From the NCBI GenBank assembly GCA_030264375.1, contig JASCQW010000061.1, positions 73,632,713 through 73,696,712 on the forward strand: 64,000 bases of DNA, in the 5' to 3' direction. Source of the stretch: Carcharhinus longimanus (Eukaryota). The notes below the pieces were generated by a model. The model was given only the letters and a program-made list of their open reading frames with translations, did no database searches and had not been told where the DNA came from. Made by a program: the position numbers and the translations under genes. Positions 444-53,879 of this stretch are shown one piece after another. Position 1 is the first letter of the stretch. Each line of letters begins with the position of its first letter.

Positions 444-656
444 AAAGTGTCATCCAACGAACAAATTACTTTTCACCATTCCTTCATCTAATTGCATTCG
501 TAGAATCATAGAATCCCTGCAGTGCAGAAGGAGGTCTTTCGGCCCATCGAGACTGTGGTGACAACAATCCCATCCAGACCCTATCCCCATGTATTTACCC
601 TGATAATCCCCTGACACTAAGGGACAATTCACCTAGTCTGCACGTGTTTGGACTGT

Positions 657-844
657 AAGAAGTCCCTCAACACCAGGTTAAAGTCCAATAGGTTTATTTG
701 GCAGCTTTCGGAGTCTCAGGCTCCTCACCTGGTGAAGGAGACTCCGAAAGCTAGTGTTGCCAAATAACCCTGTTGGACTTTAACCTGATGTTGTGAGACT
801 TCTTACTGTGCTTACCCCAGTCCAACGCCGGCATCTCCACCTCA
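657..844 (+). mobile_element. Short Penelope-derived insert: inverted arm + hammerhead-like motif + tail
   Basis: TSD TGTTTGGACTGT at 645-656 and 845-856; arm 655-716 is the reverse complement of 738-806; matches the 3' end of the GIY-YIG-bearing copies at 15631-16090 and 28336-29655. Confidence 0.85.
726..756 (+). ncRNA. Degenerate minimal type-I hammerhead ribozyme motif
   Basis: CAC-CTGGTGA-AGGAGACTCC-GAAAGCTA-GTG; core CTGATGA altered to CTGGTGA; stem I CAC/GTG, stem II GGAG/CTCC. Confidence 0.55.
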
Positions 845-1047
845 TGTTTGGACTGTGAAGGGAAGCTGGAGCACTCAGCAGAAACCCACACAGGCATGGG
901 GAGAATATGCAAGGTCTATATAGACAGTCACCTGAAGCCAGAATTCAATCCAGGTCCCTCATGCTGTAAGGCAGCAGAGCTAACCACTATTGTGGGCAAT
1001 TAAGGCAGCATACACTCAAGACTCTCACAAACAATTAAGTCATCACT

Positions 1048-1181
1048 GGGTTCCAGTAAAAGGTCATCACCCTGAAACATGAACCCTGCTTTTTTGCAGA
1101 TGCTGTCTGACCTGTTGAGCATTTCTAGCATTTTCTGTTTAAATTGCAGATTTCCAACATTCACAGTAATTTTGTTTTTGC
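1048..1181 (+). mobile_element. 3' fragment of a second Penelope-like family with a decayed hammerhead-like motif
   Basis: GGGTT-CCAGTAA-AAGGTC..CCCT-GAAACATG-AACCC followed by CAGATGCTGTCTGACCTGTTGAGCATTTCTAGCATTTTCTG...CAGATTTCCAACAT, which I recall as a shark PLE terminus. Confidence 0.55.
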
Positions 1182-3290
1182 ATTTTGTAAAATATCACCC
1201 CCCCACTTCCTCCAAAGAAGCAGACTCTATAAAGACTTTAAAATGAGCAAATGTGAATCGGAAGAGTGCACCTGACCGTACAGATAACAATGAAGCTTTG
1301 ACAACTACAAACTGTGGGCATGTAGCCCCACTCATCCGGCCGCATTACTCTGGCCCAGATCTTTGCTGCCAGTTCGGTGCATAAAGATGGAGAATTCTCA
1401 ATTCCACAAACCCAACCTTTAAATCTGACTGCCTGGTCATTGGATTTCTAGTCTGTTGGGGTGGGGGCTGAGAGTTGGCCAGATTGGAAGTCTTCCATAT
1501 TTAACTCTCTGTTTGGTTCTTCTGGATTTAAATGATGTCGATGGATGATATTTAGGTGATACAGATTACATTCCCATTAGAAATTGTTTCGAGGATCAAC
1601 ATAAAGAAATAAGTAGCCATGTGTGTGTTACAAGCAGCTCCAGGATTGAGATGATCCTCTTCTCATTGCAGTTCGGATCCTCAGTTAGAGGAGTTGCTGA
1701 ATGAACCTTTTACATCTGTACCTGAGCAACCTGATGTTGCCTCCGGTTTCTTACTGTTGAGGAGAAAGGTCAGAAACCAGGCTCAGGTTTCTGCTCTAAG
1801 CAGCCTTAAGAAAGTCAAATCCATCACTCACTGGACTCTCAACCGTATCCCCACTATTCAATGGGCAAATTGGTTTAATGTCAAATCAGTGAAAGTCCTA
1901 TGAGATTATTTCCTGCAGTTAAGTTTGTGAATCATGCATGCAGGAAGACCTAGGCTCTCCCTTACTGTCACCACAGCATCATCTGTGCTTCCATAGAATG
2001 GGAGAATGGGTTAATCCCAGACTGTTTCTGAAATGTGGTGCGGCAGGTGACTGAGGACATTTCCACAAAGCTGTCACATTCTGCACTGATGCCTGCAACA
2101 AAGTTTCCCAGACATTGCCACAAATGAGGGGTGTAGAGTCAAATCAAAGGCACACACTCTAGAGATTGTTTTCAGAATTTACACATTGGTACAATGATTC
2201 CTTTGAGACTTCTTATCAAGTAAGTAGCGAGGAGTCCCATAAGTCCAAAACCATAGAAACCTTCTCCTTGTTCTCTGCTAGGCATGTGACAGATTTGGAC
2301 CCATTCCCAATTCCTTTATATTGTGCCAATCCAACATCCTCACTAAAAGTACATAATTCCTCTTGGATGAAAATATCTGAGTTAATGCTTGAGAATAAAA
2401 AAGCAAGTGCTGCACAAGTTAAAATCAACCATGTTTTCCAGAGGAACAAAGGGATGAGATTTTGGTCCAGATATTTACATCCTCTTCCTCCTGATCATCA
2501 TCCTCCTCAGTATTGTTACTGTCATATGACACAAGGATGGAGTTCTTGCCCTCCTTCTTATCAACATCTTCTTTCTCTTCCTCAGTAACTGCACCCCGAT
2601 CACTCTCAGCTAGGGTATCTGCAACAAAGAATGGTAGCAACTAAGAATAAAGACATTGGAAGGCTGAAAAGGTTTACTGTTGTATGATGCTTCTTACAAC
2701 TACCTATATAGATATGTAGCCAGTAAGTTGACACCAAAATTAAGCCATCAATTATCTGTCCCCAGTGCTAGAACAGAATGTCAGCCCAACAGCCCCGCGG
2801 CCTGCTCTTTTAAAGGGTTTATACCCCTCAGGTCAGGCTGCCTACTTCTCAAGGACATTTTGTGCAAATTTCTCCTGCAATAAGATTAGAAGCACTTGAT
2901 TGTCTCTCATGTGACATGGGACAGTTTATGTAAGGTACTCTCTGTCAGAGTGGTGGAAGGGGCTTACAGATTACGCATGTAAACAATTGCTTTTAGGGAG
3001 TTACTGTCAAGTGCTATAAGATATTGAGTTTTTGACCCGGCCAAACCTGCTTTCAAAATGAAAGATTATATTACATTCTTGTTCAATGTACCAATTGTAC
3101 CGATTATCATCCCCAATTTGNNNNNNNNNNCGGTGTATCGATGCTGAAGTGAAAACAGAACAACATAATATTGCCTGAAAGCTTTGTTCAATCTCTTTGA
3201 GTAGAGTTTGGAGATGGGTTTTGCTGGAATTGAGAGCTCTTCTTGTGTTCTTCTTCACACTGCTTTGTCCTTTATTGGAAGACTGATCGT

Positions 3291-3353
3291 GAGTGAGGCT
3301 TCAACCCACTGTCCTTTGAATCAGAGGCAGGAGTGCTATTAAACTAGCCAAGG
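3291..3353 (-). mobile_element. tRNA-derived SINE head fragment (DeuSINE-like)
   Basis: Reverse complement CCTTGGCTAG..TAGCACTCCTGCCTCTGATTCAAAGG..GTGGGTTGAAGCC resembles an A/B-box head. Confidence 0.4.
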
Positions 3354-4212
3354 TGAAAGGAAAAAAAGGCTTGCTTTGATATCAGCACCTTAAGCATTCT
3401 TAAACGTATCAAAACTCCTCACATCCAATGAATCATTTTCCTGATTTTTTGTTCTACATTCTCAAGTATTCTGATTTCATCAGCAAAACCTGACGTGAAC
3501 GAAAGAATCCAAATGCGAACACACAAACCGAATGATTTCAAATACAGGCTGAGCACTGGGAATAATCAAATTTATGAAACGAATTCATTTAGGACATTAG
3601 CTACATTTTTCAAGCAAACACCAAATGGGAATCAGTTTTCTTTCAATCACCCAATAACAATGCAGCATGATTAACTGAGAAGACTAATGTCTTTCTCCCA
3701 TCGCTGCCCATGTGGTTCAATAATGTTAAATGTGCACCATGATTCCTGCTGATTGCAAATGATCTTACTTGTCTGTTCTGTGAGTTGTGATTATAAGTCA
3801 ACAAGTTTTAAATATCTGCAGTGCCAGTGTAAACGTTAAAACTACAGCTGTGTACAGCTTCACCACCAAGTGTATAATGCATCCACGTTGAATTTGGCCA
3901 GCAAATAATTAAGTGAATTCATCATATCGCCTCCCATTTGGCAGGTGCTGGTGGGGAATTAATTGGCCTCAATCACGGGGAGGTGGTTTAATTAAACTTA
4001 ACAAACTTTTGTAAACTTTGTGAAATAATTTAAGTCCAACTTGATGACTGCTTAATTTTTTGGAATTTGATTGTCAAATGTTTTAATAATACGTTATCCC
4101 TATGTGGCTCTAATGAATTAACATGCTGTGAGAAATCTAGTGAATGCTTTTGATTGAATAATAGAATAATGATCAACATTAGATTATGTAACCTTGAAAA
4201 ATAGGTTAATTG

Positions 4213-4556
4213 AAAGAAAGCATTTTAATTTTTTAGCATCTTATCACATCCATGCACGTTTCAGCATTTCAAAGTATTTCATGTCCAGTGATTTACTGTT
4301 TTTAAAGTGTAGTCATTGTTTCACTGTTGTTATGTAAGCAGATGTAGCAGCTAAATTGAACACAGTAAGGTCCCCAAAACAGCAAATGAGATAAATGACT
4401 ATTTAATCTTTTTGTCATTGGCATTGATTGAGAGTGAAATAAAAAAAAAGCCTAATAATGCCATGGGATCTTTTATTCAGGACTTAGAATATTACCTCGT
4501 TCAACTGTAAAAAATACAGCAATTCCTCAGTACGATGACAATTCAGCTGAAACTAT
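4213..4556 (-). mobile_element. DeuSINE (SacSINE1-like) body and tail
   Basis: AAGTGTAGTCA...GCAGCTAAATTGAACACAG..AACAGCAAATGAGATAAATGAC...ATGCCATGGGATCTTTTA...CAGCAATTCCTCAGTAC matches the Deu-domain SINE pattern as I recall it. Confidence 0.65.
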
Positions 4557-7500
4557 GGGCTGGATTTAAACTTTGAGATGTAGTGGGAATGACAGTTTGG
4601 TACAGGGAGTAGGTGGAGGGGGAAGGAGGGAGAAGGGGGTGGGTTGGTGGACGGGGTGGGGCGGTGTTGGCAGAGAGTCCAGTAGCACACTAAAAACCCA
4701 GAAGAGAATGCAACACGACAATCAATGCTTTTTTAACCCAGCCAATGAATTACTGGGCAAGAGTTTTCAGTTCATCGGCTTCCCATTCTCCCGGTGAGAA
4801 AGGTGATTGCAAGTCCAGCCCCACTCAGTTAAGTGACTCTGAGTAAGAATCCTGCCCCCTTCTGGGGAGGAGGTCCTACCTCCCTGAGCTGCCAACCTAA
4901 CAGATGACCAGAAAATCTCTGATCACAGCAGAGCCTCGGGAGTGGTAGCCACTTCAGAGACTGCACCCAGTTCCTAACAGATCCTCGCTGGAGTCAGATG
5001 GAGATATAAACTGGGGGAAAGTTTCTGGAGGGCCAGGATAGGAGACCCTGACAAGGTATTTGGGTGTGGAGGCTTGGATAAGGTGGGGTGGAGAGAGGAA
5101 GACCTAGGGGATCAGGGGGTAGACATTGGGGGTGCTTCCATGGTGCCCTTAAAGGAGGTACCCCTTCTTTCCAGGCTATAGCCCTAGGATTTGCATACAA
5201 TATTCATTCATGTTGACTTAATGAAAGTGGAAAGATGAAATATGATCAAAATTATCACAAAGTCTTTTTACCTTGACAGGTTTAATTAATGTTTTTAATT
5301 TCACACTGAACATTCACTCGTTTAGCAAGAGATGGTGTAGGAGGATGATGAAGACTCCTCTGAGGGTGCAGCATCACCAGACTCATTCATATTACACCTC
5401 AGCTCAGATACTCACCCCGAGGGCTTTGGTAAGGAAAATGTTCACCTGGAGACTCACACATCACAAGTGAGAAAGAGCAGATGGCGAAGACAAGGAAAGC
5501 AATAGAGAGCCTGTACTGGAGGCCACAGAACTCTCCAAGCTCTGCTCAGCTGCTGGGACATGGTGTACCTCAGGGGCCATTCATGAACAGGATCCTTCAG
5601 GACCTGCAGCAGAGAAGGCGTGATGGTGTTTCATCTGCAGTATACATGCTTTTGGAGAGATGGAGTCCATCTCGAGGATGAATGGTATGATTGGCTATCT
5701 CCAGAATGGAGTTGCCTTTAGTTGCTTGGACCATGAAATATAGCAGTCAGGAAGTGCAAACAGGCCTTCATCATTGGCTTATGTCTTATGAATGCCACTA
5801 ATAGACCGATTGATACCTTAGCCTTGGCCATTCACCTCCAGTGCATTGCTTGCAGAGCAGGGTAGCTGGACCATGAGAGTATGTTGATGAAAGGGGATGT
5901 GGAAGTGGGAATGGATCAAAGTGTTCTCCCTTCTCACCCGATGTTCTCCCACCACCCCAATCAATACCCACATATTGCTGTGTGGCCTGATAGTAGTCTT
6001 CCCTTGCAGAGGTAATGGTGAGTTACCCTTTAACGGAACCCTCATGGGCATCAAAATCCAGAGAATATTGGCTTTAAGTTGTCTCCATCCACACCACCCC
6101 AACCCTTCCAATGTCAGGTCCCTAAATCAGGGCACTGAGTGCCTCTCGAAGAGGGGCCACCCCAACCCCCACCCCAACCACCCCAGTAGGCCATTAACAA
6201 ACTGAGTGGGTTTGTTGGTCAGCTTGTAGTAGGAACAGGTGCCGCTTTGCCATGTTGCCCATTTTTGTTTGCTGCCTGACAGCTGGCTTTTTCACTTATG
6301 ATGAATGCTGAGATGAGACATACATAATAACAGGGCCACTGAAAAACTTACTTGCTTGCAGAACTTATTTTTGGCAGTGACATTTGTTGGGGATGGATTG
6401 GTGATGGTCAGAGTGCGGGGGAAATGGTATCGGAAGGGTGGGCTGGTGGAACATAATTGAATCTCCTAAGAATGAGGCATTGTGGTTGTCAAAGTGAGCA
6501 GTTACTCACATCACATTCTGCCTTTCCCTTCATCTTAGACTTGTGTGAAGAGACTCTGTGCCTTGATCTTCCTACAGGTCCAAGCCGTGCTGCTGTGTAA
6601 CATTGTGCAGCTCACTATGACCATTCTGGTTGGTGATACTGAAGGGTGTCTCCAGATCTGCCCAGGCATCTGAAGCACATCTCCAGCACGTCAGTCACTT
6701 GCTCAGTGACACATTATTTGGTTGTCACATGTATTAATTTCTGGGCCTCATTGAATGTGTTCCTCACAGATGTCAGGGGCCACACTTTAAGTGGGTATTT
6801 CCCCTTATCTCTGAGCAGCCAGCCGACAACACTGTTTCAAGTTGCAAAGAGATCAGGGAAGATGAACTGCTGCAGGGCGAAAGCATCTTGGCAGCTGCCT
6901 GGAAATGTTAGACAGAGCTGTGTCAAGATTGCTCTGTGTTTGCACACCAGCTGCACACTGATGGAGTGGAAGCTCTTTCTTTTGATGAACATTGTCAGGT
7001 TATCATTTAGTTGCCCTAATTTATCACGTGTGCAATGGCTAATGCCCTGCATCTGTGGGAAGCCTATCAAAAATATCAACCCCAATGTCCACACATCCTA
7101 ACTGGCAGTATCGCTGGCAAAGTTGACATAATTGTTGGCCGTGACGAACAGACAGCAGTCACCTCTTTAATCCATCTGTAAGTCTCTAATTGAAATCCTT
7201 CAACAGGCTGCTGGAAGATGGAGACGATAAATGTTGAGAGGCAGTGGTTACTTTAACAACCACTGGTAAAGCATGGCTAACCAGGTCCATGTCTTGCCCC
7301 AGCAGGTTGCAAATATCTGCCACCACCAGAAGCCTCCAGACTGACTGCTGCCGTGGTGTGTGGAGGAAGGTCATCCTCAGGTATGGCCTCCTGCCAACCT
7401 CACTCTCTCTGTTCATCCCCTCCATCCTGTGGAGCTGCCAATCCGTGATTAGCAGCCTGTCGGTGTTCTGGATGATGTTGGGGTTATTCCTGCTGCCGAC

Positions 7501-8052
7501 TCTGCTGTTGCTGCTGCTGCCTCCTCTCACACATGTTTGCAAGCAATCAGCTGTGAGCTTTCAGCTCTTATTGGCACAGTTCCCCGTTGTGTCTTCAGCA
7601 CTCTCAATGGCCACTGTGTTCTCAACTTGCTTTCATTGCTGAGTTCCAGCAATGTCAGGAAACCAGTGAACCCACATTTAAATTGGAAAGCCCATGTTAA
7701 TATTACTGTAACTGACTGATGAAGGTATTGAAATTGACAACCGTCTTTCCTGAAGGGGTTGTACACATTCAACCCAAACCCCTGGAGTTAAATGTGGCAG
7801 TTGGCAGGTCAAAGCAGGCTTCTCAATGCTCATACATTTTTTCACAGCTTAATCCTGCACCCATGTCCATTTGCAATGAGCTCTCACATGTTAAAATTCA
7901 CCCCGGTGTTCTCGATCTCTGGAGAGAGGCTGAACCTATAGTTTTCTGGTTCAGAGCTGAGAATCCTACCAACCAGGCTAACCTCAGTTAAAATGAGAAT
8001 CAAAGCAATGTCTTTTTCCCCCAAAAAAACATTTACACTAAACATCCAAGCT
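4557..8052. mobile_element. PIF/Harbinger DNA transposon remnant 1 (Myb-partner gene on +, transposase on -)
   Basis: Left TIR GGGCTGGATTT at 4557, decayed right TIR near 8052; Myb-partner C-terminal region ~5330-5850 resembles 10980-11170 and 52300-52450; convergent transposase. Confidence 0.75.
6500..7500 (-). pseudogene. Decayed Harbinger (HARBI1-like, DDE_Tnp_4) transposase
   Basis: Peptides HALPVVVKVTT, GFPQMQGISHCT..FIKRKSFHSISVQLVC..FPGSCQDAFAL, WLLRDKG, FRCLGRSG; frameshifts and stops present. Confidence 0.9.
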
Positions 8053-8669
8053 TGAGGTGAAATTGCGCAGAGAAGCAAAATTTAACTCAGCTTTTCTGAC
8101 TCTGAATGAGGACCAAAATGGAACTCGTGTGAAACAACCCAGAGGGTGATGGGGGTGGAGTGAGCTTTATGGAGGAGGTGGGAGGTGGTGCTGGATGGGT
8201 GGGAGTCTCATCCTCTTTTAGCTGAAGTCTGTGTCACTGCTGTAAAGTCTGACTTTGAAATGTTTTGAGCAATCTACTGAATGCCATTAACGTTTTAATA
8301 TTAGAAAATAACCGTCGGGCTCTTGAGGAAAGCTCTGTGAGTATGTTTAAGTTTTCTGGCTTTGTATACGTTTATGATGAATAGCAAATTAAAATAAATG
8401 AAAATCGAAATACAGAGTTTTAAATCAGACTGCAGGTTCACTATCAGCTGTGTGGTACTATCATACAAATTGTGCTAAAATTGGACTGTTGTTAAAACAG
8501 AACATGTAATATAAAATTTGTTCCAACTAATGCCTTTAAAAAGGAATCACGTTAATACCATTTTGAACTNNNNNNNNNNNNNNNNNNNNNNNNNNNNNNN
8601 NNNNNNNNNNNNNNNNNNNNNNNNNNNNNNNNNNNNNNNNNNNNNNNNNNNNNNNNNNNNNNNNNNNNN

Positions 8670-9075: not shown

Positions 9076-9389
9076 GGACAGCACAGTGGGGACGGCACAG
9101 TGGTCAGCACTTCTGCCTCACAGCACCAGGGTCCCAGGATCAATTCTGGCCTCGGGTCACTATCTGTGTGGAGTTTGCATGTTCTCCCCATGCCTGTGTG
9201 GGTTTCCTCCAGGTGCTCCCACAGTCCAAAGGTGTGCAGATTAAGTTGCTAAATTGGCCCTTAGTGTCAGGGGGATTAGCAAGGTAAATGGTGGGGTTAT
9301 GGGAATAGGGCCTGGATGGGATTGTGGTCAGTACAGACTAGATGGGCTGAATAGCATCCTTCTGTACTGTAGGGATTCTATGATTCTAT
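9076..9389 (+). mobile_element. HE1 V-SINE
   Basis: GGCACAGTGGTCAGCAC head, TGTGTGGAGTTTGCATGTTCTCCCC V domain, GGGATTCTATGATTCTA tail. Confidence 0.92.
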
Positions 9390-10205: not shown

Positions 10206-10269
10206 AAAGCCTCTCTGGGGATTCTTCTCTAGACAGTTTAGGGAAGGCGAGAGATTATTTTTCTGAAGG

Positions 10270-15630: not shown

Positions 15631-16090
15631 GGGTAAGCTTTCTCCATGGTGGCCTTCAAGACACATGATGACGCAGAATCGCTGAGCAGAAACTGATAGC
15701 CAACCTCCGCATGCATGAGGACGGCCTCAACCGGGATCTCGGATTCATGTCACACTACATGTAACCCCCACCATTTGTCCTAGGCTTGCAAAATCCTACT
15801 AACTGTCCTGGATTGAGACAATTCACACTTCTTTAACCTGAGATTATCCCTCTTTCCACTCATACTACCTGTACCTGAAAAGACTTGATTACCTGTAGAC
15901 TCACATTCCAACCAATATCTTGCAATTGTGTGTCTGTCTATATATGCCATGTTTGTGAACCCACCTCTCCACCCACCTGATGAAGGACCTGTGCTCTGAA
16001 AGCTCATGATTTGAAATAAACCTGCTGGACTTTAAACTGGCGTGAGACTTCTTATTGTGCCCACTTCAGTCCAACACCGACTTCTCCACT
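15631..16090 (+). mobile_element. Penelope-like element 3' end: GIY-YIG C-terminus, 3' UTR/pLTR, tail
   Basis: GGLQDT..RRIAEQKLIANLRMHEDGLNRDLGFMSHYM*; hammerhead motif 15974-16008; AATAAA ~16015. Confidence 0.88.
15974..16008 (+). ncRNA. Minimal type-I hammerhead ribozyme motif (core intact, stems eroded)
   Basis: CAC-CTGATGA-AGGACCTGTGCTCT-GAAAGCTC-ATG. Confidence 0.6.
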
Positions 16091-16102
16091 NNNNNNNNNN
16101 NN

Positions 16103-16203
16103 ATGTGCAAACTCCACACAGGCAGTGACCCAAGCTGGGAATCGAACCCAGCTCCCTGGAGCTGTGAAGCAGCAGTGCTAACCACTGTGCTACCGTGCCG
16201 CCC
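16103..16203 (-). mobile_element. HE1 V-SINE 5' part next to a gap
   Basis: GCAAACTCCACAC..GAATCGAACCCAG..GCTAACCACTGTGCTACCGTGCCGCCC. Confidence 0.88.
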
Positions 16204-16441
16204 ACATATAGTGTTAGATTAAACTTCCATCAGTACTAAAGTTCTGCATGATTTCAGATTTCCCTTACTCAACCCAAATATTAATGACTATGTTATGATG
16301 CTGGTCCAGATATCCAAGTTTTTGGTAAGATCAGCTTTAGGGACCAACAATGTTTTGTTTAAAGTGAACAAAGTTTGAGATTGATAAGAGAATCAAGCCA
16401 CAAGATTCCACATGTTTTGAGTGTAAAAAAAACTTTACTAT

Positions 16442-26493: not shown

Positions 26494-26865
26494 ATCATAG
26501 GATAGTCTAAATCCCTACAGTACAGAAGAGGCCATTCAGCCCATCAAGTTTGCACCAACTCTCTGACAGAACATCTTATCCAGGCCCGTTTAACCCCCAC
26601 CCTATCCCTGTAACCCCACACATTTGTCAGGCCCAATCCATCTAACCTATACAGCTTGGAGTATGAAAGGGCAATTTAGCATGTCCAATCCATCTAACCT
26701 GCACGTCTTTGGATATGACAGGAAACCGGAGAACCAGAAGAAATCCATGCAGGCACAGAAAGTATGTGCAAACTCCACACAGACAGACACCCAAGGCTGG
26801 AATCAAACCCAGATCTCTGGTGCTGTGCTGTAGCAGTGCTAACCACTGTGACCCCGTATCACCCA
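26494..26865 (-). mobile_element. HE1 V-SINE
   Basis: CR1-type tail, V domain and head on the reverse strand. Confidence 0.9.
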
Positions 26866-28335: not shown

Positions 28336-29655
28336 TCATGATGTGGAGATGCTGTCATTGGACTGGCGTAAGCACCACAAGAAGTCTCACAACACCAGAA
28401 TAAAGCCCAACAGCTTTATTTGGTAGCACAAGCCATAAGCTTTCAAGCACTNNNNNNNNNNATCAGGTGAGTGAGAGTTGTGTTCAAAATAGGGCATATA
28501 TCGACACAAACTCAATTTACAGGATAATGGTTGGAATGCGAGTCTTTACAACCAATCAAGTCTTAAAGGTACAGACAATGTGAGCAGAGAGAGGGTTAAA
28601 CACAGGATAAAGAGATGTGTATTGTCTCCAGCCAGGACAGTTACTGAGATTTTGCAGGCCTAGGCAAGTCGTGGGGTTTACAGATAGTGTGACATGAACC
28701 CAAGATCCCAGTTGAGGCCATCCTCAGGTGTGCAGAACTTGGCTATCAGTTTCTGCTCAGCAATTCTGCATTGTCATGTGTCATGAAGGCCGCCTTGGAG
28801 GCTTAATGCCCGTGACCGCTGAAGTCACTGTGTGGAGTTTGCACGTTCTCCTCGTGTCTGCTGGGTTTCCTCCAGGTGCTCCAGTTTCTTCCCAAAGTTG
28901 TGTGGGTTAGGTTGATTGGCCATGTTCAAATTGTCCCTTCGTGTCCTGAGATGTGTAGGTTAGAGGGATTAGCAGGTAAGTGTGTAAGGATATGGGGGTA
29001 GGGCCTGGGTGGGATTGTGGTCNNNNNNNNNNNNNNNNNNNNNNNNNNNNNNNNNNNNNNNNNNNNNNNNNNNNNNNNNNNNNNNNNNNNNNNNNNNNNN
29101 NNNNNNNNNNNNNNNNNNNNNNTGGGTGGGATTGTGGTCAGTGCAGACTTGATGGGCCAGATGGCCTCTTTCTGCACTGTAGGGTTTCTATGATTCTATA
29201 ATTCTATGAAGTGTTCCCCAACAGGAAGAGAACATTTCTGCCTGGTGATTGTCAAGCAGTGTTTATTCATCTGTTGTTGTAGTGCCTGCATGGCCTCCCC
29301 AATGTACATTGTACATCCTTTACTGCAGCGTATCAGGTAGACAACAATGGCCAAGTTGCAAGAGTATGTACCATGTACCTGGTGGATGGTATTCTCATGT
29401 GAGATGATGGCATCAGTGTTGATGATCCAGCACATCTTGCAGAGGTTGCTATGGCAGGGCTGTGTGATGTCGTGGTCACTGTTCTCCTGAAGGCTTGGTA
29501 GTTTGCTGCAGACAATGATCTGTTTGAGGTTGTGCGGTTGTTTGAAGCCAAGAAGTGGGAGTGTGGGGATGGCCTTGGCGAGATTTTCATCTTCATCAAT
29601 GACATGTTGAAGGCTCCGGAGAAGATGCCATAGACTTTCCGCTCTGGGGAAATAC
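28336..29655 (-). mobile_element. Penelope-like element, 5'-truncated, GIY-YIG endonuclease region, split by HE1
   Basis: ORF 29196-29657: FKQPHNLKQIIV..CHSNLCKMC..VVYLIRCSKGCTMYIGE..LPVGEHF; resumes at 28825 with EQKLIAKF.T.EDGLN.DLGFMSHY; same pLTR/tail ending CATCATGA. Confidence 0.92.
28826..29206 (+). mobile_element. 5'-truncated HE1 V-SINE inserted in Penelope
   Basis: V domain and tail; TGAAGT repeated at 28820-28825 and 29207-29212. Confidence 0.9.
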
Positions 29656-29664
29656 AATTACCCT

Positions 29665-43199: not shown

Positions 43200-44477
43200 A
43201 CAATATTAGTACATCTTTGCCACCAGTGTGCATTCAAAACTTTGTTCATTTTTCTTTCTCTATCACAATGGCTGAGTGCATCCCCAACATCCACAGCAGA
43301 GATGGAAGCAGCCTGTTGACTGCTATGTCCGATGTCTCAAATGACTGTGGCAGGCATCCTCTGGAGGTCTGAGGCCTCAAGGGCCATGGCCTGCTAAAGG
43401 CTACCTGCTGTGGGACAAGTGCACCCTTCTCAGTCTGACCAGCTGAAATTGTTGGGGTCACAGGCAGAGTGGATTTGGATTGTCCTGGGTTGGTGCCCCT
43501 GGGATATCTGCCTAACAATCCTGTTCCCTTTAGATGCCCAAGGATCCCTCCCTGACTCTTTGAGAGGAAAGTTGAGATGACCTGTTCCTCTCTCACTTAG
43601 CCATTGCTGAAATGCACTCTTGGCTAGATTGATGGAATGCAGGTCTGAGCACATAGCCAGCAGAAGCTGCTGGGCCTGGGTCGCTGAGGCCAGCGGAAGA
43701 AGGCCATTCAGCCCATAGAACTTGCACTGATAATAATCCCGCCTGGCCTTACCCTCTTAACCCCATGTATTTACTCTGCTTATCCCCCTGACATAAGGGG
43801 CGATTTTGTATGGTCAATCAATCTAACCTGCACATCTTTGGACTGTGGGAGGAAACTAGAGCACTCGAAGTAAACCCACATAGATACAAGGACAATATGC
43901 AAATCCCATACAGTCACCCAAGGCCAGAATTGAACCCAAGTCTCTGGTACTGTGAGGCAGCAAGGTTAACCACTTTGTAACCATGCCACACTATCGGAAC
44001 AGATGAGATCATTTATCCATTTCCTGTACTGCAAGGCTGTCCCTTTTTGGGACCCATGGGCACTGACCACCTTCATCTCCTCCTCCCTGGCCACTGTGGT
44101 CAGACAGGAGCACCTCTACTCCTTTACCTCAGAAAGAGAACATCTCACCTTTCCTCAGTGACTTGGAGGAGAATCTCCAGGGAGGCATGTGGGGCTAGAG
44201 CTTACTGTCTTCGACTTGACGTTTCCCCAGTCTCTGAAGATTCTGGCACACTGAATGATTACTCAGATACTTTTCCAATAAGGAGCCTGCACATGACAGC
44301 GACAAGATGACTTCCTACTTGCCACGCTATGTGATGTGACACAATTCTCATGGCTATATAACTAAAAAGCTGAAGAGTGCATGATTCACTGTGATAACCC
44401 ATCCTGCTCTCCAGTTGAAGACGTTTTGACTTTGCTCCTAGACATGGGACTTTGACCCAAAGTGGAAAATTTTAGCC
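43200..44477 (-). mobile_element. Harbinger remnant 4 (Myb-partner C-terminal region)
   Basis: Composition and motifs similar to the Myb-partner 3' regions elsewhere in the window; TIR-like GAAAATTTTAGCC end. Confidence 0.4.
43695..43991 (-). mobile_element. HE1 V-SINE
   Basis: V domain TTTGGACTGTGGGAGGAAAC..., head at 43960-43991. Confidence 0.88.
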
Positions 44478-44939: not shown

Positions 44940-45390
44940 TTTTTAAAATTTATCCTGATATATAAACATCGCTGACAAGCTCAACATTTTGCTCCCTGAG
45001 GTCTTTGGGAAGTCATGATGTGGGAATGCCGGCGTTGGACTGGCGAAGAGGCAGTCCCCTCAAAAGCTTGTGAGTATTATCAAATAAATCGGTTAGACTA
45101 AAACCTGGTGTTGTCAGACTTTTTACTGTCTTTGGGAAGGTCATGGTAGCTCACCTACATCAATCTGATCTGAGTATACTTACTGTGCTTTTAAGGAGGG
45201 AGTTCCAAGATTTTGAACTGGTGACAGTGAAGGAACGGCAGTACACTTTCAATAGTCATCGTCTAAAATAGCGAATAACTTGCATGGGAAGTTGAAGTTG
45301 ATGATGCTCCTACGCACCTGCTACCCTTGTCCATCTAGACGTAGGAGTTGTGGGTTTAGGAAATGTTGTTAAAGAAATCTTGGCGACATA
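44940..45390 (-). mobile_element. CR1 3' end interrupted by a Penelope-derived insert
   Basis: GGAGGGAGTTCCAAGATTTTGA..GACAGTGAAGGAACGGC..CACCTGCTACCCTTGTCC. Confidence 0.75.
45013..45127 (-). mobile_element. Short Penelope-derived insert (inverted arm + tail only)
   Basis: TSD GTCTTTGGGAAG at 45001-45012 and 45128-45139; same two termini as 657-844 and 53624-53821. Confidence 0.85.
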
Positions 45391-45854: not shown

Positions 45855-46098
45855 GGGCACGGTAGCTGTCTGCGTGGGTTTCCTCCAGGTGCTCCGGTTT
45901 CCTCCCACAGTTCAAAGATGTGAGAGTTAGGTTGATTGGCTATGCTAAGAAATTGCCCCTAGTGTCCAGGGATGTGTAGGTTAGAGGGATTAGTGGGTAA
46001 AATATGTAGGGATATGGGGTAGGGCCTGGGTGGGATTGTGTTTGGTGCAGACTCAATGGGCCACAGGGCCCCTCTCTACACTGTAGGGTTCTATGATC
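45855..46098 (+). mobile_element. HE1 V-SINE with internal deletion of the head
   Basis: GGGCACGGTAGC joined directly to TGTCTGCGTGGGTTTCCTCC; CR1-type tail. Confidence 0.88.
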
Positions 46099-47132
46099 TG
46101 AACTCCTCAATCAGCTCACTCTGCAGTCCCCTCTCTTTATACATCAGCTACTTCCTTTCTCAATATATAGACCAAATTACTTTACACCCAACCTGATCAT
46201 AGAACTCTCCTGATTCCACCCGTTCTACTCTACAGATATAGTTCAGCCTCCAATTATAGCCTCATTCATTAGAAATACATCACAACAGGATTAACTCAGA
46301 TCATTTAATTATTTGAATCAATTATCCAATTAAATGCAGCGTTGCATGATTTTGAACCAAATGGACAATCTTCCCCAAGTATAAATAGTCCTCCTTTGTT
46401 TCTGATCTCCTCAATATGCTGGAGAACAAACCTTTCATGAAGATTTGAGTGTAAGCTTCTTTATGGTTTCATATCAGAGTCCTCAGGGATCTTTTCCATA
46501 TTGCTCAAAATTTTGTCAGGATATGATTTCTTTCTCAGTTCAGTTTTCAAATTATTTTGGTCATCATAAAAGTCCAGGGCAACATGGGAAACAATTGTTT
46601 CTCCTTCATCTTTGGTTTCTAATCCAAGAAAAATGATTCCTTTCAAAAGCTTTGTGCTCTCATGTGCACCCAAATTTTCATAACATTGTCTTTCATAGAT
46701 TCTCCCACCCCTCCATTGTTTGTGGGGCTATTGGGGATTGTCAGCTATTCTATAGGAAAGTTGCCGCCATGGATTAAATAGCCACCCACTCAAGGTTATG
46801 TTGAAAGATAGCAACAATACTTCATACTTCCTGATGTAATTTGACTGCACTATTGTTTTACATTCATGGGTTAAAAAGGTAACAGAGTCAAATATTCAGC
46901 AGGATGGATGAAGGATAATTCAACCAATTTAAGCATACAGCTTATTTGGAATTTTAGAATTACTTGATAACGGAAATCACCAGGCTTGTATCAAAAAGTT
47001 AAATGTTGTCATCCAATGGGAGGAAGTTTGGAATTTGCACCATGAGCTTCAACATTAGCAATGAAAGGGAAATATGAGGAATGCTTACATGAGAAAGATT
47101 ATGTGGCAAAAACTTTACTCTAACTTTATTCT

Positions 47133-47415
47133 GGGTGGCACGGTGGCACATTGGTTAGAACTGCTGCCTCACAGTGCCAGAAACCTAAGTTCAATTCCCG
47201 GCTTGGGTCACTGTCTGCGTGGAGTTTGCATGTTCTCCACATGCCTGTGCGGGTTTCCTCCAGGTGCTCTGTTTCCTCGCACAGTATCAAAGACATGCTG
47301 GTTAGGTGCATTGGCCCAAACAGATGCTGGGCTGTGGCAAGTAGGGGAATTTCACAGTAACTTCATTCAATGTTAATGTAAGCCTTATTTGTGACTTATA
47401 AATAAATAAATAAAC
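47133..47415 (+). mobile_element. V-SINE with alternative tail
   Basis: Full head and V domain; TTTCACAGTAACTTCATT..TTGTGACTTATAAATAAATAAA. Confidence 0.9.
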
Positions 47416-49119
47416 ATAAAGTAAGGGCTCCACAGGCTTCTCACAAAGCTTCTCTACACTGATAAGAATAGCATTCTATGCAGAGCTTCAAATATTCAGG
47501 GAAGTTACAGTTTGAGATACTTGCAATGCTAGAAGCTGACGTAAAGGAACATCAGTACTCTAAACTGCTCTGCCCGTGGCTGTCAAAGTGAGAGCACCCA
47601 TTAATTTTCTGGCTACTTGGTTCTTTCAGGCACCAGTAGGTGATTTATTTTCTTGTGTATAAGATAAGGCACCATGTCCACCTGCATTCAAGAGGTGACT
47701 GATGCACTGTTCTAGAAGGCTCACAGGTCCATCCATTTCACAAAAATGGAAGAGAAGCAGTTAGGGCATCATGCAAAGCATTAGTTTTTTTTGTAGTTTA
47801 CTGAACTCTATATAACTTAATCATTCAGAGAAACATCCAGCTAGACATTAATGAAGAACAGTCCTATGGCATGCCCATAGATGAAGAAGGATGTCAACAG
47901 GCTGCACCAGCAGATGAGGCAGCTTCGCACAAGAAATATTTTAGACCAAATGCGCACTTATTTTAATTGAGGGCATTGCATGTGCCAGTGTGATTGCAAT
48001 CATCCACTATTCAATATTTCTCCCATTTCAGGCTATTCAGAATTACTCATGAATCAATCATTGTTCAAAAGGTGTAGGTGAAGGTCACCTTTCTGTTTCC
48101 ACCTGAATTTCACAAAAACTTATCCATATTAATATTACATAAGTACAAATACATGGGAAATTCAAAACAAATTCATCAATGATGACTCTATGAATACTAT
48201 GTGATCAAAATAATTTATTTAATAGGAACTCTTATTTTGTTATTTTACCCTGTGGCATGTAGACACTTTTCAAAGCACATTAGGAGTTTGTTTTCTTTGT
48301 CCTTTGTGATGCATTGTGATAGCAGTTCCACTAAAGGAACTGTATTGATGAAATTTCAGATGTGAGAGTGGTTTGAAGTAGAAGTATCAGAATAGCTCAA
48401 ATCATTGTTGTAGGAAACTCAACACCTTTGAGTGGGGCATAAGTGGATTTATTACCTGGACTGTCCAACACTCAGGTCAAATCACTGACTTGAGAGTGAA
48501 GAATTGGTCAAAGGTGCTTTGCAGCTAATCCAGCTAATTGTCAGTCTGCCTTCCCTCACAATTCACTGCACTGTCACCAAGACCTTCAACCCCCGATTAT
48601 GAATCTGATTGGGTAATTGACTTCATGTCAAACATACCAGCAGTGAGAGCATTTTTGCTAGTATCTAACCATTTAACACATTTTTGTGGCATTATTGATT
48701 CTAAGGATACTGTCCTCTACTGGTCTGTACTTAATTACTCCAATTATTGTTAGAATAAGAGTAACAGGTATATTAATGCAGTAGTGAACGGGCTGATACC
48801 AGAATGTTGGGGAGCTGTTGGCTATAGAATTGTGTTTCTTAAAGAAGTCTTCATAATCTTCAGTAGGTTAACAGCATGTCTTTATCAACCTCTCGTAACT
48901 ATATATATACATATACAGTAATAGCTACAGGCATGGAGCTAACTCCATATTTAGGTCTTCACACATCTCTGCTCAACACTATGATTACCTTAGATTTGGG
49001 TAATGTGCCTTCTTACATCACTGTGTGGGCAGTGCTGCAGTACATTAACTGTCTATGTGCCAGACCCTTAGAGTACAATGAGGGCATCCAGTTTTTAAAA
49101 TATGAATGAGTAGCATATA

Positions 49120-49920
49120 CCATATAGAAGATGCACTGCAGCAAATCACCATGTCTCCTTCAGAGAGCACCTTCCAAACCCACCATTTTTACCACTTAAA
49201 AAGACAAAGGCAGCAGATGCAAGGGAACGCTACCACCTCCAAGCCACACACTATCCTCACTTGATACTATATTGCCATTCTTTCCTTGATGCTGGACCAA
49301 AAACCTGGAACTCCCTCCCAAACATCATTGTGGGTGTACCTTCAGCACAACAAGAACAGTGACCCTCCTCCATCTTCTCAAATAAGATTTACAAGGATGT
49401 TACAGGACTGGAAGATTTGAATTACAAGGAGAGGTTGGATAGGTTGGAACTTTTTTTCCTGGATCGTAGGAGGATGAGAGGTGTCTTTATAGAAGTTCAT
49501 AAAATTGTGAAGGGCATAGATAATGTGAACAGCCAAGGTCTTTTCCCCAGGGTAGTGGAGTCCAAAACTAGAGGGCATAAGTTTAAGGTGAGAGGGGAAA
49601 GATTTAAAAGGGACCTGAGGGGCAATTATTTCACACAGAGGGTGGTGTGTAATTGCAATGAGCTGCCAGAGAAGGTGTTAGAGGTGGGTACAATTGTAAC
49701 TTTTAAGAGACATTTGGACAGGTACACAGATGAGAAAGGCTTAGAGGGATATGGGCCAAATGCAGGCAAATGGGATCAGTTCAGTATAAGAAACCTGGTC
49801 AGCATGGATGAGTTGGGCTGAAGGGCCTGTTCTGTGCTGTATATCTCTATGATTTTATGATAGGTAATAAATACCAGCCTTGCCAACGATGTTCAAATCT
49901 CATGATGGAAGAGAAAAAAA
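49120..49920 (+). mobile_element. CR1 3' end, older, interrupted by another CR1
   Basis: AAGATGCACTGCAGC..CCTGGAACTCCCTCCC..; tail resumes at ~49860 TAATAAATACCAGCCTTGCCA. Confidence 0.75.
49378..49860 (+). mobile_element. CR1 RT C-terminus and tail
   Basis: ORF 49417-49821 YKERLDRLELF..SKTRGHKFKVRGERFKRDLRGNYFTQRVV..FKRHLDRY. Confidence 0.92.
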
Positions 49921-49951
49921 CTTACAGGTACGTCTGAAGTCATAAATCTAT

Positions 49952-50078
49952 GGCTGGAATTTTACTGTGCTGCCTGCCATGGGAATCCAAGCAGGTGAGG
50001 GTTGGGACATGGAGGCGTCTGTTGACTTTGGGTGGGATTGTACGATTTTGGGATGAGCGAGGCTATAAAATCCCATTC
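49952..50078 (+). mobile_element. ~125-bp Harbinger-type MITE
   Basis: TIRs GGCTGGAATTTTA / TAAAATCCCATTC; flanks TAT/TGT. Confidence 0.75.
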
Positions 50079-51566
50079 TGTGTGCCAGGTTTTCTTTAAA
50101 GGAAGTAGGGATTGAAAGCCAAGGTAGGTTCTCTTTATGGTAAGTTTAATATTTTAGAAGGAAATAGTGACATACTGACAAGGTATGACAAGGTAGTGGG
50201 GAAATACCAATACTGCTATTTTCTCTTTCAGTACTTTCTATGTGACACCCTTCCAAACATTCTCTATTTCAGTGCAGTATGTTTTGCATGGAGCAGACCA
50301 AAGTGAGCGTTCCCAGTTCCCCTGACTTCCCTACGTGTTCCTCTGCTTATTTTCAACTTCACTGCCTGAACATGGATCTGGCAGAGCACCACCCTTCATG
50401 CAACCCACCAGATCTTAAAACCATTTAATTCATCTTTTTCCACCAAATATCCGCTCAGATTTCTTCAGAAGAGGGGCTTTCCCCCCAGCTGTCATTGAGC
50501 CATATCGCTCTAAAATTGCATTACAAAATTACAAACCTTTTTTACATTTATCCCAATTAAATGACTCATTGGCTGCTCGAGAACATTAAAAGATCATTAT
50601 TACAAATGTGTTGTAATTGACTGATAATTGTTTCATTCTCACAACTGAAATTGCATTCTCAGCAATCACAAGCATTAAAACTGCGCATTCCTACAATTTC
50701 ATTAGTGGATTGTAAATTACATTGGAAAACTGGCATTTCACCATTGTTTTTAAATGGGGGGGAAAATTAGCTCCAGATGGACTAAAAACAAGGGTGTAAA
50801 CAGTATGTCACAATAGCAACATAACAATGTCAGCAAGGAAATTACCATGGGTATGAATTCTGCTGTTGTATTTATCGTTGCAGCATTTTCTAGCCACCTT
50901 GGACGAACAGTTGCTGATTTGTGAGGAAGACACTGCCCGATTACCTTGTGTCTAAGTGAGGGGGTACGGGAGCCGGCAAACCTTGTGCTACCAGCTCATC
51001 TCCGTGACTGCAGCATGCAGTCCAGCACTAACAATGCTGCTGAGTGGCTGTGCACTGAGCAGAGACCACAGGTTCAGCTGAGTCTAATGTGAGTTAAAGC
51101 TCATCTGTAACTTCCTAGAGCCAGCCTTGCATCTCTTAAAAGAGAGGTGCATTCTGGCTGCAGTGTGTGTTGGAAATGTTTCCTCTAAGTCTTTTTCACA
51201 AGGAAGAAAGAGTATTTGATGGAGCTCCAGGCCAAAGTGAGGGTTTCCAGTTTCCCTGATGTCTGGAATGCTGGCGGACTAGGGGGTGGAAAGGAGGAGA
51301 GAGGTTCTGCTTCCACAGGAGGAAAAGGAGGCCCACCAGGCATAATACACTGTAAATGCATCGGTTCTTACCCCTAAGTGCTGACTACAGCACCACAAAA
51401 TGTTTATTGATCCGTAATAGGTGGTCAAGATGAGTGAATGTGCCTTCACAAGGCATCTCCTACCAACCATATAACTCACCTCACAAACAGCTAATGTATC
51501 ACAACCCCATTACTCAGCTACTAGAAGTCTGCAGCAATCAGAATTCATGCCTAACAATCATGTGGA

Positions 51567-51568
<2 letters not shown>

Positions 51569-51636
<68 letters not shown>

Positions 51637-51736
51637 NNNNNNNNNNNNNNNNNNNNNNNNNNNNNNNNNNNNNNNNNNNNNNNNNNNNNNNNNNNNNNNN
51701 NNNNNNNNNNNNNNNNNNNNNNNNNNNNNNNNNNNN

Positions 51737-51810
<74 letters not shown>
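51569..51810 (+). repeat. (CA)n microsatellite spanning a 100-N gap
   Basis: Pure AC runs on both sides of the gap. Confidence 0.97.
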
Positions 51811-51812
<2 letters not shown>

Positions 51813-52516
51813 GCTGCAAGCCTAACCCCCATATCTCACAACTTGTACACACTTCCAGATATTCAGCTACAACAGACATATTGCAGCCGACATACTGACA
51901 CTCTGTCCTTGTCCCTGCAGAATAAGATGGCATTTTAAGGAGGGTGCAGCAGATAACCAGCACAGGTGTGTCTTCTGAATTCCTTGAAGGAGATGATGCT
52001 TTGAATAATTGAATCTGCAGAGAGTGAGGTTGTTGCAACTGGCACCACCAGAAGTTTTCAGCATAAGGTGATATTTTTCTGCCTTGTTCACATTCTCAAA
52101 ACTGACTTCACCCTTACCAAAAAGCCTGGTGAGAAGTACAAGCTGCAGATGGTGCGACCATGGCCTCTTCCATTCCATTCATCACTCCCCCTCCATCTTC
52201 CATGACTTCAACCCTCCCACTCTACATTTGTGTTTTCAGATTCCAAAATCCTTCCTACTGGCCAGTCAGTGCAGCTTGAGGATGGTGGGCAAAAACAGGA
52301 GGACATTTGAAGAAGAAGCACAATCACTTGATTTGATATTTGTGGCCACCAGCTCCAGCACTGGCACGATGTGTACCTCAGAGGGTAATATAGAGGCAGA
52401 ATCAGCAAATGATGAGCTACCAGCCATGAGTGGGCTGCAGTAAGGCCAGTGGAGAATTATATAATGTATGCTTGCTGGAGGGCAAGGTCACAGCTCAATT
52501 CTGTTGCGGATGACTC

Positions 52517-52921
52517 GGGCGGCATGGTGGCACAGTGGTTAGCTCCGCTGCCTCACAGTGCCAGGGACTCAGGTTCGATTGCCAGCTTAGGTCACTGTGT
52601 GGAGTCTGCATGTTCTCCTCATGTCTATGTGGGTTTCCTCCGGTGCTCCAGTTTCTTTCCACAGTCCGAAAGACATGCTGGTTGGGTACATTGGCCATGC
52701 TAAAACCTCCCACAAGCACCAGAGTGTGGCGACTAGGGGATTTNNNNNNNNNNNNNNNNNNNNNNNNNNNNNNNNNNNNNNNNNNNNNNNNNNNNNNNNN
52801 NNNNNNNNNNNNNNNNNNNNNNNNNNNNNNNNNNNNNNNNNNNCCTCCCACAAGCACCAGAGTGTGGCGACTAGGGGATTTTCACGTAACTTCAAGCCTC
52901 CTTGTGACACTAATAAATAAA
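52517..52921 (+). mobile_element. V-SINE with alternative tail (gap inside)
   Basis: Head, V domain, GTGTGGCGACTAGGGGATTTTCAC..CTTGTGACACTAATAAATAA. Confidence 0.88.
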
Positions 52922-53623
52922 TATGTAAACTAAGACAGAAGATTTTACTGGGGTGCATGCATGAAAAGGCTGATTTTTGGCTCACAGAGTCAATTATCAC
53001 TGTTAAGGGACATGGAGGAGTTTGGCTTCCAACAAGATACACAGATCCATGCAAAACTTGAAACCCATCCTCTCTAGCTTGCAATTGCTGATCAATTCCA
53101 TGGACATAACTGTGGACCCAACAAGGAGCTGGTGGGTGATGCCTCAGCTTCTATTGTATTATAGGAAGAAACCCACTAACATCTGAGTGTGGCAGTGAAA
53201 GTTGCAACTGCACTGCACCCATGCAATTTGTGCGTGGTGCCATGGAAGTCCAATTGGTTGCCATGCCAGCTCAGTTGCTGTCATCATGGCTGCCAATACC
53301 AGTGCTCAAAGAGATATGCAGGCTTTCTCAGCAGTCTAGACTATCGCAGTGCTGCCCTGGGGGACTGGTCGGAGTTCCTTGCTGCAAGAACTTGCTGGCC
53401 TCTTAAGAATACAACATTTGTACTTCTGCCACTGGCAGTAAGCCAATGCTGATGCTGATGCATCTCAACGTGCTATTCATGCTAAGGTGCTGTAGTCCAA
53501 AGCTAGGTCCACAAGGCCCAAAGCTGCTCAAAGTCATCATTTACATCCTTCCCTCCTGAAATTCAGCACACTTCCATCTACCATGCTGCAGTAAGAGTGA
53601 TTGCACTGCAGAGGAAATACTAG

Positions 53624-53821
53624 TAAGAAGTCTCACAATGCCAGGTTAAAGTCCAACAGGTTTATTTGGTAGTTCTGATCACTCTCCACTCACCTGACGA
53701 AGAGGCAGAGCTCCAAAAGCTAGTGGTTTTTGCTACCAAATAAACCTGTTGGACTTTAACCTGGTGTTGTGAGACTTCTTGCTGTGTTTTCCCCAGTCCA
53801 ACGCCGGCATCTCCACATCAT
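53624..53821 (+). mobile_element. Short Penelope-derived insert: inverted arm + hammerhead-like motif + tail
   Basis: TSD GAGGAAATACTAG at 53611-53623 and 53822-53834; arm 53622-53672 pairs with 53733-53783; CAC-CTGACGA..GCTCC-AAAAGCTA-GTG at 53691-53725. Confidence 0.88.
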
Positions 53822-53879
53822 GAGGAAATACTAGGACAGGCAAAGACCCCTACAAAACATGCAGTAAAGACCATTTTAA

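What the first reader, a model, noticed from the sequence alone, without database searches (positions are those of the whole stretch)
645..53834. Family of tiny hammerhead-bearing Penelope inserts with two fixed ends and long TSDs
Seen: three short inserts (657-844, 45013-45127 on -, 53624-53821) have clean 12-13 bp TSDs. All begin with an inverted arm at the same position ((A)GTAAGAAGTC) and end at the same tail (CCAGTCCAACGCCGGCATCTCCACATCATG). The same terminal unit closes two GIY-YIG-bearing copies (15631-16090, 28336-29655) and contains CAC-CTGANGA-stem-GAAAGCTH-GTG. Established: PLEs carry minimal type-I hammerheads with palindromic stem III in their pLTRs and often show inverted pLTRs and a short tail. 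Inference: this is either a non-autonomous ribozyme-processed hairpin retroelement or a stereotyped two-ended integration product. Three in 64 kb would imply a high genomic copy number.
Basis: partly seen in the sequence, partly recalled or inferred. Interest (0 to 1): 0.7.

Follow-up and report, generated by a model that had tools for sequence, protein, structure and literature searches.

The report
Double-primed Penelope retrotransposon stubs
These short hairpin-shaped inserts are stubs of an abundant Penelope-type jumping gene, each with its own internal join and a mirror-symmetric landing site, and they were likely made by copying the front end of the element's RNA onto both cut ends of the chromosome rather than by a self-spreading ribozyme element.

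Summary
The three inserts and their 12, 12 and 13 bp TSDs are real. They are not a non-autonomous ribozyme element: lengths run continuously from 79 to 267 bp, junctions differ, the one junction searched is unique in the genome, none of the three has an intact hammerhead core, and arms usually read through the cleavage site. They are stubs of a Neptune-type Penelope-like element (about 10^5 terminal units, about 5x10^4 short hairpins). The tail ends at the ORF start codon; the inverted arm starts about 38 nt upstream. Both ends are 10-15 nt windows, and about a fifth of tail copies lack an inverted arm. This layout is published. Not found in print: (i) a mirror-symmetric target, CTG-NN-[12-13 bp TSD]-NN-CAG, replicated in held-out loci and genome-wide (9,396 vs 2,039); (ii) one tail end plus one tail-less end in 36 of 42 pairs, either arm the longer; (iii) arms stopping 3-8x more often at a TATA/initiator-predicted start site. 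Best model (inferred): two symmetric nicks, each priming reverse transcription at one of two sites in the mRNA leader, running off at the 5' end. The scan noted the same layout and target symmetry earlier on other DNA.

The parts
645..656 (+). Insert 1, left TSD (12 bp)
657..725 (-). Insert 1, inverted arm starting at site S2 (about 38 nt upstream of the ORF ATG); inner end approximate
   Evidence: inner end read by hand, the automatic split differs by about 12 nt because the region is self-complementary
725..844 (+). Insert 1, forward arm from the predicted start site to the tail (site S1); decayed minimal hammerhead at 726-756
845..856 (+). Insert 1, right TSD
45001..45012 (.). Insert 2, TSD next to the tail (12 bp)
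45013..45043 (-). Insert 2, tail arm only (about 31 nt); no hammerhead
45044..45127 (+). Insert 2, inverted S2 arm (about 84 nt) reaching into the hammerhead but lacking CTGA; a different subfamily from inserts 1 and 3
45128..45139 (.). Insert 2, second TSD
53606..53608 (+). Left half of the target motif (CTG), 2 nt outside the TSD
53611..53623 (+). Insert 3, left TSD (13 bp)
53624..53672 (-). Insert 3, inverted S2 arm (about 50 nt), followed by about 8 nt of filler
53681..53821 (+). Insert 3, forward arm from the predicted start site region to the tail; decayed hammerhead at about 53691-53725
53822..53834 (+). Insert 3, right TSD
53837..53839 (+). Right half of the target motif (CAG), 2 nt outside the TSD
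15632..16091 (+). 5'-truncated copy: last ~40 ORF codons, 3' UTR, terminal unit with core-intact hammerhead at about 15974-16006; ends at an assembly gap
28337..29657 (-). 5'-truncated copy with Cys linker, GIY-YIG and terminal unit with tail; interrupted at about 28818-29200 by another repeat and gaps

Best explanation
The inserts are dead-end stubs of a very abundant endonuclease-bearing Penelope-like retrotransposon with a Neptune-type linker, each likely built afresh at its site by reverse transcription primed from both cut DNA ends. Shown: the tail ends at the ORF start codon (site S1), the inverted arm starts about 38 nt upstream (site S2), an insert nearly always has one of each, either arm can be the longer, both arms tend to come from the same subfamily, TSDs centre on 12-13 bp, and the empty site is mirror-symmetric (CTG-NN-[TSD]-NN-CAG). 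Inferred: the enzyme, probably a dimer, nicks each strand 2 nt 5' of a CAG, leaving 12-13 nt 3' overhangs; one overhang primes at S1 and the other at S2, helped by 1-3 nt of pairing; the template is the uncleaved leader of an mRNA that starts in the pLTR about 135 nt upstream of the ATG, so both copies stop early or run off its 5' end; the two cDNAs are then joined head to head and filled in. Long copies arise when one arm has more template (tandem or read-through RNA, or a template jump). The hammerhead sits at the very start of that RNA and is a passenger in these stubs.
For: Parent: RT and C-terminal GIY-YIG with C-X4-CxxC linker; tandem copies run from the tail ATG straight into the ORF (8 such junctions used). 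Pairing: S1+S2 in 36 of 42 inverted pairs and 24 of 25 with a TSD. Independence of arms: the S2 arm reaches more than 10 nt further upstream than the S1 arm in 22 of 43 resolved short inserts, the reverse in 8; long bodies end at either site with the other site inverted at the far end. Same source: arm identity 0.842 within vs 0.781 between inserts, 0 of 5,000 permutations, n=25. Microhomology: 2.03 nt at S1 vs 0.80 expected, 1.16 at S2 vs 0.72 (p=0.014). Target: TG at -4,-3 in 27 of 50 and CA at +3,+4 in 24 of 50 sites, 4.0 expected each; held-out 8 of 14 and 7 of 14; without TSD calling, CAG 94 vs CTG 25 at 12-20 nt past the tail in 146 loci; genome-wide CTG 9,396 vs CAG 2,039 upstream of the arm start. 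Stops: 18 in 351 nt at consensus 317-331 vs 42 in 6,263 nt downstream, 7.6x, held-out 3.4x, p=0.013; TTTATAT lies at 293-299 and an initiator-like CCCACT at 321-326. Print: PAc cuts and extends both strands, starts at two internal sites bounding the tail, is modelled as a dimer and uses uncleaved RNA (PMC11167929); Penelope transcripts start in the pLTR (PMC2377424).
Against: No biochemistry and no RNA start data. The 317-331 window was chosen after seeing the data and the held-out effect is about half as large. The discovery set also had 10 stops in 580 nt at the hammerhead cut (355-366), about 3x background, though the held-out set had 2 in 309 nt (background). About 20 of 90 tail copies have no inverted arm and mostly no TSD, and 11 inverted arms start elsewhere. 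Only about half of sites carry each half-motif. Arm ends are ambiguous by several nt in self-complementary stretches, and long hairpins are under-assembled (18 of 90 unresolved). All 150 tail-anchored loci come from one chromosome-size contig. PAc prefers ATT and shows no primer-template homology, unlike this family.
Confidence: 0.72

Rival explanations
1. A non-autonomous hairpin element (retrozyme- or SINE-like) is transcribed, cut by its hammerhead and re-inserted as a unit by the parent's enzyme.
For: High copy number, clean TSDs and a conserved minimal hammerhead in the family: H17 is A, T or C in 71 of 73 parsed arms and one stem II pair covaries (63 Watson-Crick vs 50.5 shuffled; relatedness not controlled). 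Three inserts share both inner ends. Non-LTR retrozymes derived from pLTRs are reported (bioRxiv 10.64898/2026.07.22.740005).
Against: Continuous lengths, unique junctions, no intact core in the three inserts, arms cross the cut site, head-to-head rather than tandem layout, same two ends on ORF-bearing copies.
Confidence: 0.05
2. One priming event only: the first cDNA folds back or is copied by repair, and the inverted arm is a DNA-templated copy of it.
For: Both arms share subfamily variants; fillers up to about 20 nt show repair-like joining.
Against: A fold-back of the S1 cDNA cannot reach further upstream than that cDNA, yet the S2 arm does so in 22 of 43 (insert 2 is such a case); a fold-back of an S2 cDNA cannot supply the tail. 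It would need trimming of the first cDNA after copying, and does not explain the symmetric target.
Confidence: 0.1
3. Double priming is right, but the pile-up at consensus 317-331 is not a transcript start: it reflects a splice acceptor just upstream (AG at 315-316), an RT pause at the hammerhead's 5' edge, or alignment loss where subfamilies diverge.
For: A pyrimidine-rich AG precedes the stem; in D. virilis the intron end maps to the 5' end of helix I (PMC4209133); the held-out effect is weaker.
Against: Most stops are at 320-329, not 317; fillers beyond the stops share no upstream exon; many junctions have 0-4 nt filler, so the ends are not alignment loss; 15 references (the master and 14 subfamily arms) were used.
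Confidence: 0.13

Closest known systems
Insertion layout of EN+ Penelope-like elements (Craig et al. 2021, PMC8557442, 24 keyword passages seen; Arkhipova et al. 2013, PMC3846280, parts 1-3 of 5 read)
   Same: Inverted 5'-truncated copy at the far end, 30-40 bp tail at either end, TSD around the whole unit, pLTR overlapping the ORF start, TATA plus initiator-like motif in the pLTR (Pen2a).
   Different: Here the commonest product is a 79-267 bp stub. PMC8557442 describes TSD length as variable, set by a later second nick, and names microsatellite targets for linker-bearing clades; here TSDs centre on 12-13 bp inside a mirror-symmetric CTG..CAG site.
PAc, Poseidon element of Anolis carolinensis (Frangieh et al. 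2024, PMC11167929; parts 1-2 of 4 read, keyword search of 3 text supplements found nothing; figures not seen)
   Same: Two internal RT start sites bounding the tail, both strands cut and extended, predicted dimer, hammerhead cleavage not needed.
   Different: PAc sites lie over 100 nt into the ORF, it prefers ATT, shows no primer homology and no strand difference in start site; here S1 is at the ATG, there is 1-3 nt microhomology, the two ends use different sites, and the target is bipartite.
Penelope of Drosophila virilis (Schostak et al. 2008, PMC2377424; part 1 of 4 and passages)
   Same: [quoted passage not shown]
   Different: TATA-less internal promoter with an intron there; a TATA-like motif 30 nt upstream of the inferred start here.
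Minimal type I hammerheads of metazoan PLEs (Cervera and De la Pena 2014, PMC4209133; abstract, Results, Discussion read)
   Same: Core, bulged base before stem II, palindromic stem III; opposite-strand pairs 100-700 bp apart already noted.
   Different: Their proposed cleaved or circular template is not what these stubs record.
Non-LTR retrozymes (bioRxiv 10.64898/2026.07.22.740005; parts 1-3 of 5 read)
   Same: Short, pLTR-derived, hammerhead-bearing, non-coding.
   Different: Retrozymes are head-to-tail tandem units of fixed consensus; these are head-to-head, with unique junctions.
L1 twin priming (recalled; no paper read)
   Same: Second target strand primes a second cDNA and yields a 5' inversion inside one TSD.
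   Different: In L1 the second site is variable and the two parts do not overlap; here both sites are fixed windows and the arms copy the same sequence.

Membership tests
EN+ Penelope-like element | Single ORF with RT and C-terminal GIY-YIG | tested here: met
   RVT_1 E=0.00057 and GIY-YIG E=0.0012-0.0015 on decayed copies, below curated cut-offs; motifs in order in one reading frame of L133
EN+ Penelope-like element | [quoted passage not shown] | tested here: met
   Seen in translations; definition from PMC8557442
EN+ Penelope-like element | pLTR from partial tandems, inverted copy, 30-40 bp tail | tested here: met
EN+ Penelope-like element | Minimal type I hammerhead in the pLTR | tested here: met
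   Parsed in 73 of 90 long arms, core intact in 26; no Rfam match; activity untested
Neptune clade | CX2-5CxxC linker between RT and EN | tested here: met
   C-X4-CxxC; shared with Nematis per PMC8557442
Neptune clade | RT phylogeny groups with Neptune rather than Nematis | not tested
   No reference set was at hand; no tree built
Non-LTR retrozyme / non-autonomous unit | Head-to-tail tandem units with a complete hammerhead in each | tested here: not met
   Head-to-head layout; no intact core in the three inserts
Non-LTR retrozyme / non-autonomous unit | Fixed unit length and shared internal sequence among copies | tested here: not met
Non-LTR retrozyme / non-autonomous unit | Circular or short RNA and self-cleavage | not testable with these tools
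   Only contig-type runs were offered

The most novel reading that the evidence does not exclude
The stubs are genomic strong-stop DNA: this Penelope-like enzyme makes a symmetric 12-13 nt staggered double nick at CTG-N16/17-CAG, primes both ends in the leader of its own capped mRNA, and reaches the rest of the element only by jumping from the RNA's 5' end to the repeat (start site to AATAAA, consensus about 324-400) at the 3' end, an LTR-like strand transfer inside a target-primed reaction.
Probability: 0.25. Interest if true: 0.8.

Novelty: new member of a known kind. Interest (0 to 1): 0.45.

Why it matters
How Penelope-like elements form their inverted repeats and tail is still described as undefined (PMC8557442), and the only in vitro system stops short of the integration product. 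Tens of thousands of stubs give numbers that make the question testable: a defined target (CTG-N16/17-CAG), a nick spacing of 12-13 nt, one start site per strand and a predicted run-off point. They also warn annotators that these TSD-flanked hairpins are neither MITEs nor retrozymes.

Tried and rejected
Rfam scan of the window: no match at E<=1. RNA evidence: no RNA holder listed; four contig-type runs guessed to be RNA were laid on a tandem junction, but contigs cannot show starts, strand or level, so nothing is drawn from them. Ribozyme-cut template: an excess of stops at 355-366 in the discovery set was not repeated. Search for duplicated-repeat footprints of a template jump: only 3 direct-orientation junctions among all loci then held (L226, L233, L234), too few; a homologous jump would be seamless anyway. 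No CTG-N16/17-CAG in the 458-nt terminal consensus, so no sign of self-targeting. No TSD found for the 28.3-kb copy. My first end-calling scripts mis-set some arm starts; boundary counts come. The script set the tail end one base off, which shifts its S1 and length columns by 1 but not the flanks; one locus (L306, same insertion as L233) was left out there and. The query straddled an inverted junction but still returned ORF loci. Literature: ten full-text searches showed no paper on twin priming, strong-stop products or a symmetric target for these elements in the listings; most subscription papers, Repbase reports and bioRxiv supplements were not visible and may hold it. PMC12910113 (12 passages) had nothing on Penelope targets.
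Full report
Observation. The three inserts lie exactly where stated, with perfect TSDs of 12, 12 and 13 bp. Each starts with an inverted arm and ends in the same tail. None has an intact hammerhead core, and insert 2 has only a 31-nt tail arm. The 15.6-kb copy holds only the end of the ORF; the 28.3-kb copy has the Cys linker and GIY-YIG. The window lies in a 2.68-Gb genome, G000:C61; I did not identify the organism.

Parent element. [quoted passage not shown] No tree was built. A 458-nt working consensus of the terminal unit from 70 segments gives the coordinates used here. Tandem copies continue from the tail's final ATG into the ORF, so the tail is the last 38-40 nt of the 5' leader, as for the 34-bp repeat of D. 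virilis Penelope (PMC2377424). In order, the unit holds TTTATAT (293-299), an initiator-like CCCACT (321-326), a minimal hammerhead (327-361, predicted cut 358/359), AATAAA (374-379), site S2 (about 418) and site S1 (ATG, 456-458). The promoter, poly(A) and cut labels rest on recalled consensus motifs, not on a call. The hammerhead is conserved at family level: parsed in 73 of 90 long arms, core intact in 26, H17 not G in 71.

Abundance. One hundred evenly spaced 10-kb stretches (1 Mb, 127 kb of N) held 48 terminal units, of which 13 short S1+S2 pairs and 4 more with a very short second arm and a TSD. Scaled by hand this is about 1.3x10^5 units and 4.6x10^4 short hairpins; gaps may split some inserts. 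Five exact 27-mer tail variants total 12,021 matches with 0 in the reversed controls. Non-CpG divergence of ten sampled arms was 2-15%.

Ends and junctions. Ninety loci were chosen only by an exact tail match (the first 30 of each of three variants, all on contig C1). Forty-one have an inverted arm at S2; 31 of these have a TSD (8-16 bp, 23 at 11-14; 0 of 300 shuffled pairs). The ends are windows: 452-463 and 409-422. Twenty-nine of 31 are 79-267 bp with no preferred length. The rest of the 90 are gap-interrupted or long (18), single-armed and mostly TSD-less (about 20), or have an arm starting further inside (11) (classes overlap slightly). In the window, random, top-hit and long sets 36 of 42 inverted pairs are S1+S2, and 24 of 25 with a TSD. 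Of 55 resolved junctions only three inserts share both inner ends, and insert 3's junction is unique genome-wide. So the hairpin is rebuilt at each insertion.

Two primings. The S2 arm reaches further upstream than the S1 arm in 22 of 43 resolved short inserts and the reverse holds in 8 (52 of 65 short pairs were resolved, 9 top-hit ones counted apart). A fold-back of one cDNA cannot give both cases. Long copies behave alike, with the body ending at either site. Arms of one insert are more alike than arms of different inserts (0.842 vs 0.781, n=25). TSD ends match the RNA by 2.03 nt at S1 (null 0.80) and 1.16 nt at S2 (null 0.72, p=0.014). PAc cuts and extends both strands and starts at two sites that bound the tail (PMC11167929), which supplies the biochemical precedent.

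Target. The flanks are mirror-symmetric. TG sits at -4,-3 in 15 of 30 discovery sites and 12 of 20 independent sites; CA at +3,+4 in 13 of 30 and 11 of 20; about 8% is expected. The spacing is TG-N16-CA in 21 and N17 in 11 of 50. A held-out set fetched afterwards gave 8 of 14 and 7 of 14 (59 loci, 28 with an S2 arm, 14 passing the TSD filter). Without calling TSDs, CAG outnumbers CTG 94 to 25 at 12-20 nt past the tail in 146 loci, and genome-wide CTG outnumbers CAG 9,396 to 2,039 upstream of the arm start (windows N14-22 and N13-21). Insert 3 is a perfect CTG-NN-[13]-NN-CAG, insert 2 nearly so, insert 1 not. A few sites lie in shared repeats and are not independent. The geometry implies a nick 2 nt 5' of CAG on each strand and 3' overhangs of TSD length (inference).

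Where copying stops. Twenty-four of 86 arm ends fall in 320-329. For all 90 tail arms, with gaps censored, the stop rate at 317-331 is 7.6x that downstream (window chosen post hoc) and 3.4x in the held-out set (p=0.013). This is 25-35 nt downstream of the TATA-like motif and just upstream of the hammerhead. I read it as the 5' end of the mRNA. The predicted ribozyme cut showed about 3x excess in the first set and none in the second, so the usual template is uncleaved, as for PAc. No RNA data could test the start site.

Comparison and verdict. The layout is published (PMC8557442, PMC3846280, PMC2377424, PMC4209133). The element is a new member of a known kind; the non-autonomous reading fails. 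The symmetric target with near-constant spacing, the one-site-per-end rule and the run-off point were not found in ten searches of the open library, which misses much. Earlier notes of this scan reached the same readings on other DNA; I had stated the double-priming and start-site reading before the first look-up and measured the target motif before seeing the notes on it, and they are not counted as support. Interest 0.45: ordinary as an element, useful as a quantitative footprint of an unresolved integration mechanism.

Noticed in passing
L037:2688-2910, L062:7822-8022, L016:127-1617: Independent insertions at the same site of a repeat: L037 and L062 have the same 12-bp TSD and flanks, L016 a close variant. 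The flank reads like a CR1-type LINE ORF (recalled, not tested); the site fits CTG-N16-CAG.
   Followed up: partly
L003:1430-1510: Three direct repeats of consensus about 326-349 at the inner end of a tail arm, as if copying ran off near the predicted start site and re-primed on a short match.
   Followed up: no
L226, L233, L234: Direct-orientation jumps: a 335-405 piece joined upstream of a long arm; a second tail unit 20 nt after the first; a tail followed at once by sequence from 350.
   Followed up: partly
consensus 315-331 and 421-432 of the terminal unit: Splice-like signals: a donor-like CAGGTGAG on the antisense strand at the hammerhead's 5' edge, and acceptor-like pyrimidine-AG stretches on the sense strand at 315-316 and 431-432. 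No splicing evidence.
   Followed up: partly
window 28818-29200: A short dispersed repeat, with gaps, is inserted inside the endonuclease region of the long copy.
   Followed up: no
window 843-993, 9084-9389, 16103-16226, 26510-26858, 43695-43989, 60314-61493 and others: A dense family of 150-350 bp repeats at 65-85% identity, SINE-like by size; insert 1 sits at the edge of one.
   Followed up: no
L211-L300: Assembly gaps fall inside or beside many copies (18 of 90 unresolved), so long hairpins are under-counted in this assembly.
   Followed up: partly
window 45128-45146 and 45001-45019: Insert 2's duplication extends imperfectly into the tail: the target already read like the RNA around the ATG for about 6 nt, a strong microhomology case.
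   Followed up: partly
L225: A 58-nt tail arm with a perfect 13-bp TSD and no inverted arm, the simplest product seen.
   Followed up: no
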